In this document: positions 14,501 to 20,500 of the stretch, one piece after another
How the letters are laid out: every line of letters starts with the position of its first letter
Position numbering within the stretch: the stretch's first letter is position 1
Assembly (NCBI RefSeq): GCF_057098645.1
Contig: NZ_CM169472.1
DNA: 64,000 bases
Reading direction: 5' to 3' (one strand)
Program-made: the position numbers

Positions 14501-17500
14501 TTGCTCATAGCTAGTATACCAAGTCTTTTTGCCAGAAATTTTTCTGGATTGTCTACTTGCTAACCACGAGCGGCAAATCCAGTGTTGGTGTGATTTTTGT
14601 TTTACGATCGTAAATCAACACCTGATTTTCTGTTTTATGCCCGCTGAAAATTTGTTTGTCGCGACTGCTGCCTTCGTAATCTGAGATCCCCTTGGCTTTT
14701 ATGTCGTGAAAATTGCACCCGAACGGAACGCCAACTTTTTGCTCGGCTGCGCGTTTAGCCTGATTCCACCAGTTATTCAGCGTTTTAGCTATGACTTTCC
14801 CGCCTTTGGTTGTATTGATCACATATTCGCATGTACAGGAAGATACATTTCGGGCTAACTGGATCGCTGTACGTAATCGCGGTGACCATTCCTTGATTTG
14901 TTTGGTGCCGGTTTTGTTTTGCTCAATGTAGATCCCTTTATCCATAATATCCTGCCATTTCAACTCAAGCACATCACCGAGTCTTGCCGCACAGAGATAG
15001 GAAATCTCCATTGCAATGCGTAACTGTGGAATTGCTTCCGCATATATCGCCGCATACTGTTCATCGGTGATGTAAACAGTGCGGGCTTTAAGAGAGAATT
15101 TTCTGACTCCTTTGCATGGGTTATTCTTCACATACCCACGCTCATATCCCCACCCGTATACTCGACTCAGGCTTGCCAGTTCATGATTTGCCTGGGTCTT
15201 GCTCTCAAGCCCTTGTTTATCCATGAAAATTCTTACCTGCTCAGTTTTGACATTATCAGCAAGCACTTTTCCGAATACCATCAGCAACGCCTTCTGATGT
15301 TGTCGATAATCTTTTTGGGTTCGGGGGGCCAGTTCTGTAAATGCAGGGGAGTCCATAAACATGTGCCACAATTTAGCTACGGTCATTATGTTGTGGAGTT
15401 TTGCTTTTTCCAGTTCATAATTTTGCCAGACTTTAGCTACGCTGGTTTTCCGCACTCTTCCTAGCCCTATACTTCTTGTACTTCCTTCGGGTTTCCACAC
15501 GTAACTGTAACCATTCGATCTAACCCGCGGTGGCAGTACATTATCTTTTTTATTTTTTCTTGGTCTTCCCATTGTTCAGCGCCTCAAAATCGGGTTCAGC
15601 AGAAACCAGTTCAGATGTTTTTGGCATCGTTGTCAGACCGTGTGGAATATCCCTGCGGAGAACTATGGGTTCGTTTTTAGGGCCGATTACAAATGGGATG
15701 CCGTGCAGTCTTAACTGGTGTTGCTGTTTTGTGTATCGCTCGTATTTCGTGATCTCTTTAATCTCTGCTGGAGATAGAGTTAATTCGTACATGTGGTCAC
15801 GTGCCTTTACAGCATGACCGCCGCCACTATAGCTGGTGGGCGGCGATATGGGTTGAACATCAAAAATCAGCCTGACTCGGGAGCAGTTTTTGCCAGATGG
15901 CTGAAACGTATTTCGCCTGGTAACGTGCATCGTTCAGAGCGTTATGGCGTTCACCTTCGAATGGAATAGTCGTTCTTGCGTCGAAATCCATCATCAGTCC
16001 CAGAGCAACCATCGTTCTTACATCGCGATCATTGGTGTAACGCCATGGGCAGGGGATCCCCTGCCGTTCATATGAACGGCGTAAAATCACGTTGTCGAAA
16101 GTTGCACCGTTACCCCAGACCTGAACAAAAAATTCACCGGAGTTTTCGTCGATAAATTCCCGTAATTGCAGCAGTGCATCATCTAACGGGATTTCATCGG
16201 TAAGAATGGCGGATTGCGCTTCGCGTGACTGTTTCAGCCACCACTTAATGGTGTCCCGATCAATGACTCCGCCAGCAGTTTCCAGATCGATAGTTTTGCT
16301 GAATTCTGGCCCCATCTCTCCGGTTTGCGGATCGAAAAATATTGCACCTATTGAGATAATCGGGGCATCAGGATTTTTTCCCATTGTTTCAAGGTCAATC
16401 ATCAGATGGTGCCACAACCTGCTGGTGGATGTAATTTCACGATGACCGTTCACCTTAATTAAGGGATTTGCTGTCTCGCCACTTTCATTATCTGTGGTGT
16501 GGTAGTGATCGCCGCCACTGCCTTCCATTTCCTCCTGAGCTTCAGCCTGATTTTCTTCATCGAATGTTTCCTGGCAGGTTGCGTCGCCCATCACCGCGCC
16601 ACAATCAGGGCAGTTGCCGCCACCACTCTGACCGCAGGCGGTACAGACTTTTTCCTCTTCCTGTTGCGCTACTGGTTCGGATTGTTTCGTTTCTGGCTCG
16701 TCTTGTAACGCATTTGGGCTGTTTTGTTCCGCTTTTTGGTCGTTCTGTTCCGTTTCTGACTGGTTCTGGTTCACAGAATCGCAGGTTTCAATCCCCTTCA
16801 CCCATTTCGGATCATTCGGATCGCTAATCCCTTCAACAAATTCACCACGTGATGCAGCAAGCAATTTATCGGCGTCAGGCTGGCTGATATTGGCTGCCTG
16901 CATAATTTTGTTTACTTCGTCAGCGGTAACTTTTACCGGCTCCGGTTGTACGGAATCTTCAGCGGTATCCACATTTTGCGGTAAGTCCGTGTATGTTCCG
17001 TTTTTGCGGGCAAGATATTCTTCTTTCGTGATTTCAGTAGCCCCGGCAGCCAGCGCCTTGTCCAGACCAGAAAGTTTGTTTGCGCGACCGTATTTTTCGC
17101 CATCCTTGTCGGTGAAGAGGAAGTAGAACGGCCCCTCACGCTCTACAGATGGTTCGACTTCCACTTTGCATTCGGTTTTTTCGTTGTCCGGAATTGCCGT
17201 TTCCACTGCATCAGTTTCTGGTACTGGCGACGAGAGAGTATCAGTTGCGCTCTGATTTCTTCCTTCATCTTCAAACACGCCCTTTGTAGTCAGGTATTCA
17301 GTAATGTATTTGTTCAGTGCCACAGGGTCTTTGTGAATGTCGATCGGACGTTCACGGACAAGGCCAAAAATAGTCTGGCGGCTGTAGCGAAGCGCATCAG
17401 GTTGTTTGCGCATTGATGCGGAGATGCGCTTCCAGTCTTCGCGATCTCTGGCGATAACTTCATTTTTAGCCCAGCGAAGGATGCTGCCGTCAATGTTTCC

Positions 17501-20500
17501 GGCATCCGCATCACCAGGCCAGAGATTTTTCACATGTACCGAACTTAACCAGGACCGCGTTCTGTACTTCAAGGGACAGCTTGTCAAAATTGACGTTAAT
17601 AGGATCGGATTCTGGTTCGACCGGAATAAAGGAAGCGGATTCCTCATCCCAGCGGTTTTCCTGCATATATTCGGTATCCCAGGAGTCGATAGCAGGGCGG
17701 GGCATGCCGGGTTTATCTTCACAGACAAGAAATTTATAAGCGCAGTCCTGAGCAGCAGGATATTGCTCCAGGAATTGCCAGGTAAATTTGGCACGGGCGC
17801 GGCGTTCATCACCGGCTTCAATGGCAGTGGCTACAGCAACTGCGCCCTCTTCTTTTATTGCCTGTTCGTCCGGAATGGCGGCGCAAATAAAGACTTTACT
17901 CATTTTGTTTTAACCTCATTACAGATTTAAGGGTGAACAAATCCCTGCCATTGCTGGCATATAAAAATGAAACCGGATATTAATTACGGTGCTGTTTTAA
18001 AGTCCTGCCGGTATTTCGTTATTATTAGTGTGAGTAGTTTTATCTACCGGATAACAGTTACCGGGAATTTTTTGTTCTGCTGCTGCAGCCATGCATTCTT
18101 TCATTGAACCGTATAAGCCAGTCACCAGCTCAAGAGATTCGCCGGAAACAAGATAAACTGTCAGAACGAGTGCAAATGTTGTATTCATTGTTTATATCCT
18201 TTTTGCAGCAGGTCCAGACGAGCCAGCATTGAAGGAATGCATACTTCATTTAACAGGTCCTGCTCGAGTTTTCTCTGCTTAATGGCGTCTTCAATAAATG
18301 TTTTGTCTCCAGTGATAACGCCAATTTCGAAACGAAGTTCAGACGTGCTGGCATTACATGATAACTTTTCCATTATCGCGTCCTCAACAATGAATTTTGT
18401 GATGCGGTGCCTGGTGCCTCCAGGTGACGTTAACCAGTTAACAATTAACGCCGGATACAGAGAATCCACCCATAACACTGTTTTTGGTTTTAACTGTTCC
18501 GCGTGCGCTGAGCCGCATTCACCGCATCACAAAATTCACTTTTAAAAAAGGGCGGCAGAGCAGTTACGGAGTAAAACTGATACCGCCAAATGTCACCAGA
18601 ATATTGATAACAGAGGGCGTTGTAGCGGGGTTGTCACTTAAGCGTATGGTCAACCTGACAACCCGGTGTCCTCAACTGGGGAAGGAATAACCCCGCCATA
18701 CTTACCGCCGCGCCATTTCGCGGATTGCCACAACCGGAAGCGCACGTTCGAAGAAATCTAACGACAAGCCTTCTAAGGGAAAGAGCTTCGCCGTACGCTT
18801 TCGCGTTGTGTGCCTGCTTTTAACCACGTCAGGCGAGGTGGTTTCCGTCGTTCCCCAACGACAGGAAATCTGTATAATCTGGATATCCCCAACAACAGGA
18901 AGGTGTTTTATATGGTGGTTCAAAAGAATTGTTCAGGTACTGGTAAGCCTGCGGACAGGTCGGACATTCCGAATACCAGGAAACATATACCTGAGAAAAA
19001 CATTCGACCAAAACCATCTCCAGCTCCTTCAGAGGAGAGGGGGAACAGCAACAATCAAACAAGCAGGTGATGATATATGGACCGGGATGATATTCTTGAC
19101 AGGGTTTTATATGGTTATTTTCTTGAACAACTATTCTCTGTAGCGACTGGTCGTCTCGATAAACTTCTCTCAGTGGTGAGTATTATCCTCGGTTTATCTG
19201 TCATTGGTGGATTTATTCCTGAAGTTTCTGGAGTTCTCATTGTTGTGATAGCAACCGTTCAAACGATTTACGGATTCGGACAAAAGTCAGGTAACGCAAT
19301 GAGAAAATCCGCAGAATATCTGCAGCTTTATGATGATGCAGAAAAATATTCCGATTCGGAATTGAAAATGCAGTTAAAGCTCCTGGAAAAAACAGATGAT
19401 AATATTTGGTCGTCGCTTAAAGATATCGCAATCTTAAAAAACCAGATCAAAATAGGAATCTCCGTAGAACAACAAGAGAAACTGTCTGCAAAATCCAAAT
19501 TGATGCGATTCCTTTGTGGTTAGGAATACCCAGATTGTTAAAGAGCATGCCGGATGCTTACCCGTGTCCGGCGAACGTATTCCACTTCGCCTGTGGAGAA
19601 CTCTTTAATTACTAACCTTCATCAGTCAGAGTTTCTTGCTAACCAGCGACGCGCGCCAGCTTCCGTTTTAAACGTTTTGCTTCTGGTATACGTCATCGCG
19701 GTGAACGTGCCGTCCAGGTTGGGGAATACTCCGCATACCAGAGATTCGTTGTTGCCAAGATTGAGCATATCCATGTTGACCTCATTTACCCTTAACGCCG
19801 GGTCGCGGAACTAAAAACCTGCTGCGCTGTTATACAAAGTGTTCCCGCCGTCATGTTCATACGCCTCGGGCTGGCTACTTAACCCCTGGCCACTGCCGGG
19901 TAACTCGAGGTATTGCCCTGCATTCTGTGGGGTGGGTGGGTGATGAATAAACAATAGCACTGCTATTTTATTGTGTAAATAGTAATGCTATTGTTTTTTT
20001 GGAGGTAAGAAAAAAAACCACCCGAAGGTGGTTGTTGGTAGGAATGATTAACAGCTTTTGTTTGGATACTGCCTTCGTGAGTGAACTACATTTACGATCT
20101 CGATGTTAGATGCTGTTACTCGGTAAAGTATTATGTAGTTAGGATGGGTCACTATCTCACGAAGGCCTAGAGCTCTTTCGCTTGGTGGATACAGGTAAGG
20201 GTGTTCAGAAAGTGACAAAACTGATGTTTCAATGCGTATTTTTAGTCTACGTGCAGCGGGAGGGTTTTCCTTGGCAATATAGGCTACGATCTGACGCAAA
20301 TCATCACGCGCAGAAGGTAGCCATAAAATGGGCAGCATTACTCACTCCTGTTCGTCGAAGCTATTTGCGCAATAAGGTTTTCCATTTCAGCCATTACTTC
20401 GTCATGCGGAATTGCAGGACGGGGGTCTGCGAGGCTTGCTGCCACTTTGGTGCGTAACCATTCGTTATAGCTGTTTTCTTGTTCGATTGTTTCAAATTCT

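What the first reader, a model, noticed from the sequence alone, without database searches (positions are those of the whole stretch)
17480..17560. Frame break in the phage exonuclease gene
The N-terminal ORF ends with ...LVKFGTCEKSLAW* while the DnaQ-like exonuclease region continues in another frame from ...HVKNLWPGDADAGN.... This indicates an indel or an internal deletion that fused two parts of a larger gene out of frame.
Basis: seen in the sequence. Interest (0 to 1): 0.4.

Follow-up and report, generated by a model that had tools for sequence, protein, structure and literature searches.

The report
Prophage exonuclease gene broken by deletion
A 392-base internal deletion has split a large exonuclease gene of a decaying E. 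coli prophage into two out-of-frame pieces, which is ordinary prophage gene decay.

Summary
On the minus strand, a 130-aa ORF (17903..17511) ends in ...FGTCEKSLAW*. The rest of the gene continues in the +1 frame down to the stop at 15860.

Near-identical relatives (99.9% in the flanks) carry one uninterrupted 811-aa "exonuclease" gene, for example E. coli O145 RM9872 and strain C325 (WP_025380290.1). Isolated phages carry uninterrupted 813-826-aa versions. Relative to these, the window lacks exactly 392 bp, from the third base of codon 126 to the first base of codon 257. The junction lies between window bases 17527 and 17526. Because 392 is not a multiple of 3, the frame shifts and a stop follows five codons later.

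The A5 run at the junction is assembled by the deletion, four A from the left side and one from the right. It is not a homopolymer miscall.

The same allele is found on 13 contigs of public NCBI draft assemblies, so it is a real lineage variant. It is rare: the intact protein is on 603 contigs, and no complete RefSeq E. coli genome has the junction.

The downstream part is still 100% identical to residues 258-811, so the deletion is recent. It has no usable ribosome-binding site. The same prophage also carries three IS insertions.

Verdict: a recent pseudogene of no particular novelty.

The parts
15860..17903 (-). Whole exonuclease pseudogene: an 811-aa prophage exonuclease gene lacking 392 internal bp.
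   Evidence: Collinear with L003 CDS 2848-5283 (WP_025380290.1) apart from the deletion. There is one mismatch in the 1.6 kb compared on the upstream side of the junction and one in the 3.2 kb on the downstream side.
17511..17903 (-). N-terminal remnant ORF of 130 aa: native residues 1-125, then the out-of-frame residues KSLAW and a TGA stop.
   Evidence: The native start ATG 17903 has a good Shine-Dalgarno match (TGAGGT, -6.3 kcal/mol). The precomputed Pfam hit for this exact product is PF27430 YdfE_N.
17526..17527 (-). Deletion junction. The gene strand reads GTGAAAA|ATCTCTGG. The 392 missing bp correspond to L003 3225-3616.
   Evidence: There is no direct repeat at the breakpoints, only an imperfect 'ATC' offset by one base.
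15860..17533 (-). Downstream remnant. The +1 frame is open from GTG 17533 (557 codons). Codons 4-557 equal native residues 258-811, including the DEDDh exonuclease domain. The stop is at 15860-15862.
   Evidence: 100% identical to residues 258-811 of the intact protein, with the IDLET, NGATFD and HNALND motifs present. PF16473 matches with E 1.6e-66. Neither GTG 17533 nor any later in-frame start in the first 200 codons has a Shine-Dalgarno match (no better than -3.3 kcal/mol).
15550..15792 (-). Downstream neighbour: DUF4224 (excisionase-position) gene.
   Evidence: Coordinates mapped from L003 5351-5593.
14553..15572 (-). Prophage tyrosine integrase (339 aa), next to chromosomal yccA.
   Evidence: plus the annotation of the identical region in C325 and RM9872 (WP_001299351.1).
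17997..18188 (-). Upstream neighbour: DUF1482 (ydfD-like) gene. dicB and the DicF RNA lie further upstream.
   Evidence: Rfam places DicF at 18550-18601 on the minus strand (76.9 bits).

Best explanation
The feature is a recent 392-bp internal deletion in the large early-region 'exonuclease' gene of a lambdoid, effector-carrying prophage integrated next to yccA in an O145:H28-like E. coli. The gene encodes, in order, a YdfE_N domain, a helical N-terminal module, a RecE-like middle region and a C-terminal Rv2179c-like DEDDh 3'-5' exonuclease domain.

The deletion runs from the third base of codon 126 to the first base of codon 257. Translation from the native start therefore shifts frame and stops five codons later, giving a 130-aa fragment. 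Residues 258-811, which include the catalytic domain, are left in the +1 frame with no ribosome-binding site of their own. The gene is most probably inactivated, that is, a pseudogene.

Shown: the deletion, its exact ends, the frame shift, its presence in other public assemblies, and the intact single-ORF state in relatives.

Inferred: loss of function, and the origin of the deletion by illegitimate recombination or replication slippage with essentially no microhomology.
For: (1) In blastn against E. coli O145 RM9872 (L003), window 19168-17524 matches L003 1583-3228 and window 17526-14300 matches L003 3617-6843. The flanks are 99.88% and 99.97% identical and 392 bp are missing between them. 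C325 gives the same result.
(2) Intact single ORFs of 811-826 aa are annotated in complete genomes and in isolated phages. In protein alignment A1 the window's two ORFs tile residues 1-125 and 258-811.
(3) The deleted segment is ancestral coding sequence. It aligns in relatives of only 22-46% identity and contains the nearly invariant W195 and L250.
(4) The exact 130-aa product is on 13 public contigs and the 557-aa product on 11. Locus L006 (GCA_032490095.1) is collinear with window 13511-21904 across the junction at 99.96% identity.
(5) The intact 811-aa protein is on 603 contigs. No complete RefSeq E. coli genome gives a single-piece match across the junction.
(6) The downstream part has no further lesions, so the event is recent.
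(7) The downstream ORF has no Shine-Dalgarno match.
(8) The same prophage carries an IS2 in its replisome-organizer gene and two more IS elements. Other alleles of this gene family carry independent internal deletions or a 4-bp frameshift. Both observations fit general prophage decay.
Against: Loss of function is inferred and was not measured. The downstream ORF is undamaged and begins with a GTG that overlaps the end of the upstream ORF by 23 nt, so some reinitiation cannot be excluded. The 13 contigs may all come from one clone or one sequencing project, since two of the accessions are close together, so the number of independent confirmations is uncertain. The window's own reads could not be inspected.
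Confidence: 0.93

Rival explanations
1. Sequencing or assembly artefact: either a homopolymer miscall in the A5 run or an assembly collapse.
For: No complete RefSeq genome shows the junction.
Against: The difference from intact relatives is 392 bp, not 1-2 bp. No repeats flank the missing segment that could cause a collapse. The identical allele is on 13 contigs of other public assemblies, including short-read drafts.
Confidence: 0.03
2. A functional split: the allele expresses two useful products. These would be a stand-alone 130-aa YdfE_N-domain protein and a 557-aa N-terminally truncated exonuclease, made by coupled reinitiation at the junction GTG 17533 or by a +1 recoding event.
For: The downstream ORF is 100% intact with all DEDDh motifs. 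GTG 17533 lies 20 nt upstream of the first ORF's stop, a geometry compatible with translational coupling. The allele persists in at least 13 contigs.
Against: There is no Shine-Dalgarno match (-3.0 kcal/mol against -6.3 for the native start). There is no slippery heptamer, the shift needed is +1/-2, and five A's are too few for efficient transcriptional slippage (established knowledge). An intact downstream sequence is equally expected for any recent deletion. The deletion cuts through a predicted helical domain instead of falling at a domain boundary. Every isolated phage examined keeps one ORF.
Confidence: 0.04
3. The window is the ancestral state and the relatives gained a 392-bp insertion, or the two ORFs are normally separate genes.
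For: None beyond the formal symmetry of any indel.
Against: The 392 bp encode in-frame sequence conserved in relatives down to 22-46% identity, including the nearly invariant W195 and L250. All intact relatives have one ORF. The window's first ORF ends in five out-of-frame residues.
Confidence: 0.005

Closest known systems
Intact prophage 'exonuclease' WP_025380290.1 (811 aa) of E. coli O145:H28 and strain C325, with phage homologues in mEp460_ev081 (823 aa), Evi (826 aa) and vB_EcoS-689R5 (813 aa)
   Same: Same locus between the DUF1482/dicB genes and the xis-like/int genes. The DNA flanks are 99.9% identical to the chromosomal copies. Residues 1-125 and 258-811 are identical to the O145 protein.
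   Different: The window lacks 392 bp (codons 126-257), so the gene is split into two out-of-frame ORFs.
Other broken alleles of the same gene family: the PPompW / Stx2a-phage copy annotated 'frameshifted by deletion of 4bp', and the internally deleted products P0083 (532 aa), P0093 (527 aa) and P0142 (392 aa)
   Same: Independent lesions in the same prophage gene, showing that it decays repeatedly.
   Different: The positions and sizes differ. P0083, P0093 and P0142 carry deletions that remove the first catalytic motif of the exonuclease domain. Here the lesion is N-terminal and shifts the frame.
RecE / exodeoxyribonuclease VIII of the Rac prophage (NCBIfam PRK09709)
   Same: Residues 246-611 of the intact protein match positions 271-600 of the RecE profile (E 7e-68). 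Both are large early-region prophage nucleases, and some database records name this gene 'exodeoxyribonuclease VIII'.
   Different: The score of 229.5 bits is far below the equivalog cut-off of 1269. The C-terminal catalytic domain is a DEDDh 3'-5' exonuclease (PF16473) and not RecE's PD-(D/E)XK 5'-3' nuclease. No recT-like gene is annotated between this gene and the xis-like/int genes in the annotated relatives.
PDB 8kel / 8ken, a 227-aa 'Exodeoxyribonuclease'. From my own memory, unverified, the length and name fit phage T4 DexA.
   Same: The C-terminal domain (residues 631-767) aligns with it at E 7e-7 and shares the D-x-E motif region.
   Different: It is a stand-alone single-domain enzyme. 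The prophage protein has about 620 additional N-terminal residues.

Membership tests
Prophage YdfE_N / Rv2179c-like 'exonuclease' family (WP_025380290.1 type) | N-terminal YdfE_N domain (PF27430) | tested here: met
   The precomputed Pfam hit for the exact 130-aa product is PF27430. The local Pfam copy lacks this model, so it could not be re-scored.
Prophage YdfE_N / Rv2179c-like 'exonuclease' family (WP_025380290.1 type) | Second N-terminal module (PF27432), a helical region of roughly residues 105-340 | tested here: inconclusive
   PF27432 is recorded on intact relatives. The deletion removes residues 127-256, which are predicted helices 129-206, the linker, and almost all of helix 247-257, whose last residue falls in the damaged codon 257. 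The model is not in the local library, so the remnant could not be scored.
Prophage YdfE_N / Rv2179c-like 'exonuclease' family (WP_025380290.1 type) | C-terminal Rv2179c-like DEDDh exonuclease domain (PF16473) | tested here: met
   E 1.6e-66 over the full profile, positions 1-177. The IDLET, NGATFD and HNALND motifs are present.
Prophage YdfE_N / Rv2179c-like 'exonuclease' family (WP_025380290.1 type) | One continuous ORF of about 811-826 aa | tested here: not met
   A 392-bp deletion splits it into 130-aa and 557-codon out-of-frame ORFs. It is therefore a pseudogene of this family.
RecE / exodeoxyribonuclease VIII (NCBIfam NF007259, PRK09709, equivalog) | Whole-protein score above the curated cut-off of 1269 bits | tested here: not met
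   229.5 bits, and only the middle region aligns.
RecE / exodeoxyribonuclease VIII (NCBIfam NF007259, PRK09709, equivalog) | C-terminal PD-(D/E)XK nuclease domain | tested here: not met
   Pfam finds only PF16473 and RNase_T in the intact protein. A PDDEXK-like domain (DUF3799) appears only in a distant relative that shares the N-terminal module, P0157.
Programmed ribosomal frameshift or transcriptional-slippage gene | The two-frame arrangement and slippery site are conserved in relatives | tested here: not met
   Relatives have a single frame and an extra 392 bp. The A5 run does not exist in the intact sequence, which reads GAAAAC there.

The most novel reading that the evidence does not exclude
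The deletion allele is not dead. It would release a free 130-aa YdfE_N-domain protein and, by coupled reinitiation at the junction-spanning GTG 17533, a 557-aa exonuclease lacking its N-terminal module. That would change the activity or regulation of a prophage nuclease whose function has never been characterised.
Probability: 0.04. Interest if true: 0.3.

Novelty: already known. Interest (0 to 1): 0.1.

Why it matters
It matters little beyond correct annotation. The two ORFs should be annotated as one pseudogene (internal deletion, frameshifted), not as two genes. The 392-bp deletion is a rare and recent marker: 13 contigs carry it against 603 with the intact allele, and no complete RefSeq E. 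coli genome has it. It could therefore help in typing this O145:H28-like sublineage. Together with three IS insertions, it documents ongoing decay of an effector-carrying prophage. The gene family itself is experimentally uncharacterised. It combines an N-terminal module with no solved structural relative, a RecE-like middle and a DEDDh C-terminus. That is a property of the family, not of this finding.

Tried and rejected
- Homopolymer-error idea: rejected. The lesion is 392 bp, and the A5 run is created by the junction.
- Repeat-mediated deletion or assembly collapse: no direct repeat lies at the breakpoints. The only feature is a 9-nt inverted-repeat arm that starts at the right breakpoint (L003 3617-3625 with 3691-3699), which is probably chance.
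- Junction 36-mer searched in IMG/VR viral contigs: 0 hits.
- Literature searches (YdfE + prophage + exonuclease; Rv2179c-like + prophage; PPompW): nothing relevant. One query was malformed.
- Local Pfam scan of the 130-aa ORF: no hit, because the local copy lacks PF27430 and PF27432.
- Structure of the N-terminal 344 residues: AlphaFold2 on a 23-sequence alignment gave pLDDT 86 and pTM 0.40. Foldseek against the PDB gave no hit with E <= 0.001, so no function could be assigned to the deleted segment.
- IS- or IEE-mediated origin of the deletion: considered because IS3-family elements are in the same prophage. There is no IS remnant at the junction, and I did not test for IS-bearing intermediates in sister strains.
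Full report
**Observation**

The genes in this part of the window lie on the minus strand. 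ORF 17903..17511 (130 aa) ends ...LVKFGTCEKSLAW*. A second minus-strand frame reads ...HVKNLWPGDADAGN... across the same position and stays open to the stop at 15860. Its C-terminus is a full-length Rv2179c-like DEDDh 3'-5' exonuclease domain (PF16473, E 1.6e-66; weaker match to RNase_T).

**What it is**

Megablast of the region against phage records found 16 records that cover most of the query. In each, the matching stretch is about 400 bp longer than the query.
- Phage mEp460_ev081 has an uninterrupted 2472-bp (823-aa) gene at this position.
- vB_EcoS-689R5 has an 813-aa gene and phage Evi an 826-aa gene.
- The PPompW / Stx2a phages carry a copy annotated as "frameshifted by deletion of 4bp".

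In complete E. coli genomes, the best matches to window 17300-17750 are 99.6% identical. All of them come as two pieces spanning 843 bp instead of 451 bp. A 171-bp query centred on the junction gave the same result. No complete RefSeq genome gave a single-piece match.

Direct alignment with E. coli O145 RM9872 (L003, exonuclease CDS 2848-5283, WP_025380290.1, 811 aa) shows:
- window 19168-17524 matches L003 1583-3228;
- window 17526-14300 matches L003 3617-6843;
- there is one mismatch on each side.

The missing segment is L003 3225-3616, which is 392 bp. It runs from the third base of codon 126 (AAC, Asn) to the first base of codon 257 (TAT, Tyr). The window junction on the gene strand is GTGAAAA|ATCTCTGG, between window bases 17527 and 17526.

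Since 392 mod 3 = 2, the frame shifts. The native frame then reads GAA AAA TCT CTG GCC TGG TGA (E K S L A W stop). Protein alignment A1 shows the two window ORFs tiling residues 1-125 and 258-811 of the intact protein.

**Direction of the change**

The 392 bp are ancestral coding sequence. An exhaustive profile search with the N-terminal 344 residues found 177 clusters at 50% identity. In a 23-sequence alignment of relatives down to 22% identity, the deleted region aligns throughout and contains the nearly invariant W195 and L250. The window therefore carries a deletion, and the relatives did not gain an insertion.

**Real or artefact**

It is assembled from four left-hand A's and one right-hand A, so it is not a homopolymer error. 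No direct repeats flank the missing segment, which argues against assembly collapse.

An exact-sequence look-up gave these counts:
- the 130-aa product is on 13 public contigs;
- the 557-aa downstream product is on 11 contigs;
- the intact 811-aa protein is on 603 contigs.

Locus L006 (GCA_032490095.1) is collinear with window 13511-21904 across the junction at 99.96% identity. The allele is thus real, rare and lineage-restricted. The junction 36-mer was not found in IMG/VR viral contigs.

**Context**

Window 1-17526 is collinear with strain C325 with 4 mismatches. It runs from ycbZ, matP and ompA through helD to yccA, then into a prophage: integrase, a DUF4224 xis-like gene, the exonuclease, a DUF1482 gene, dicB, a RelB/RelE pair, repressor-like genes, a YdaT-family gene and a replisome organizer. 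The rest of the window is a lambdoid prophage. In C325 this prophage ends with the effector genes nleB2, nleC, nleH and nleF.

Compared with C325, the window's prophage also carries:
- an IS2 at 22313-23642 inside the replisome-organizer gene;
- an IS21-family element at 33671-35799;
- an IS3-family element at 39628-40937, which contains an ALIL frameshift pseudoknot.

The prophage is therefore decaying in several places.

**Consequences (inferred)**

The native start ATG 17903 has a good Shine-Dalgarno match (-6.3 kcal/mol). GTG 17533 opens the 557-codon downstream frame and overlaps the first ORF by 23 nt. Neither it nor any later in-frame start in the first 200 codons has a usable Shine-Dalgarno match (no better than -3.3 kcal/mol). 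The shift needed to rejoin the frames is +1/-2, there is no slippery heptamer, and five A's are too few for efficient slippage (established knowledge). The expected product is therefore only the 130-aa fragment.

An AlphaFold2 model of residues 1-344 (pLDDT 86, pTM 0.40) predicts four regions:
- an alpha/beta domain, residues 1 to about 95;
- a helical domain, about 105-206;
- a disordered linker, 207-245;
- a second helical domain, 247-338.

The deletion removes helices 129-206, the linker and almost all of helix 247-257. It cuts through domains and does not fall at a boundary. Foldseek found no solved structural relative, so the role of the lost segment is unknown.

The downstream part is 100% identical to the intact protein and all DEDDh motifs are present. 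This fits a recent event and is not evidence of selection.

**Comparison with known families**

The intact protein belongs to a small, enterobacterial, prophage-borne family named "exonuclease", "3'-5' exoribonuclease" or, wrongly, "exodeoxyribonuclease VIII". Its middle region (residues 246-611) is homologous to the middle of RecE, but the score of 229.5 bits is far below the equivalog cut-off of 1269. Its catalytic domain is DEDDh and not PD-(D/E)XK, and is distantly similar to PDB 8kel.

Distant relatives share the N-terminal module but have other C-termini. One carries a PDDEXK-like DUF3799 domain.

Other alleles of the family carry independent internal deletions (P0083, P0093 and P0142) or a 4-bp frameshift. 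Breakage of this gene in resident prophages is therefore commonplace.

**Verdict**

The cause is a 392-bp deletion and not a homopolymer slip. It is an ordinary recent pseudogenisation in a decaying prophage, with low interest and no novelty of kind. The residual possibility that the two pieces are both expressed and useful has about 4% probability and would be only mildly interesting.

Noticed in passing
window 22313-23642: A 1.33-kb IS2 (InsC/InsD-like ORFs on the minus strand) interrupts the phage replisome-organizer gene. It is absent from the otherwise 99.9%-identical prophage of strain C325. The insertion probably makes the prophage replication-defective.
   Followed up: partly
window 33671-35799: An IS21-family element (IstA-like 390 aa, IstB-like 266 aa) lies between the phage tRNA/STnc100 region and the SASA-family esterase gene. 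It is absent in C325.
   Followed up: partly
window 39628-40937: A 1310-bp IS3-family element with an ALIL frameshift pseudoknot (Rfam 120 bits at 40486-40602). An identical copy sits at a different place in the same prophage of C325, so the element has moved or been inserted independently.
   Followed up: partly
window 18550-18601 (-), 27854-28028 (+), 33080-33270 (+), 32754-33003 (+): Prophage-borne small RNAs and tRNAs: DicF, sok antitoxin RNA (next to hokD in the relative), STnc100, and three phage tRNAs (Met-CAT, Arg-TCG, Arg-TCT).
   Followed up: no
intact family, e.g. L003 2848-5283 (window 15860-17903 remnant): The 811-aa prophage 'exonuclease' is itself uncharacterised. Its roughly 340-residue N-terminal module has no solved structural relative (Foldseek PDB, no hit). 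Its middle region is RecE-like. The same N-terminal module is fused to different C-terminal nuclease domains in distant relatives (DEDDh here, PDDEXK-like in P0157). No RecT/Bet-like gene is annotated between this gene and the xis-like and integrase genes.
   Followed up: partly
P0083, P0093, P0142 (other E. coli contigs): These are independent internally deleted alleles of the same gene. They remove the linker and the first catalytic D-x-E motif while keeping the N-terminal module, which suggests the gene is a recurrent target of decay in resident prophages.
   Followed up: partly
L003 3617-3625 / 3691-3699 (window about 17526-17518 and 17452-17444): A perfect 9-nt inverted repeat has one arm starting exactly at the right-hand deletion breakpoint. 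It is possibly a coincidence and possibly a hairpin that favoured the deletion.
   Followed up: no
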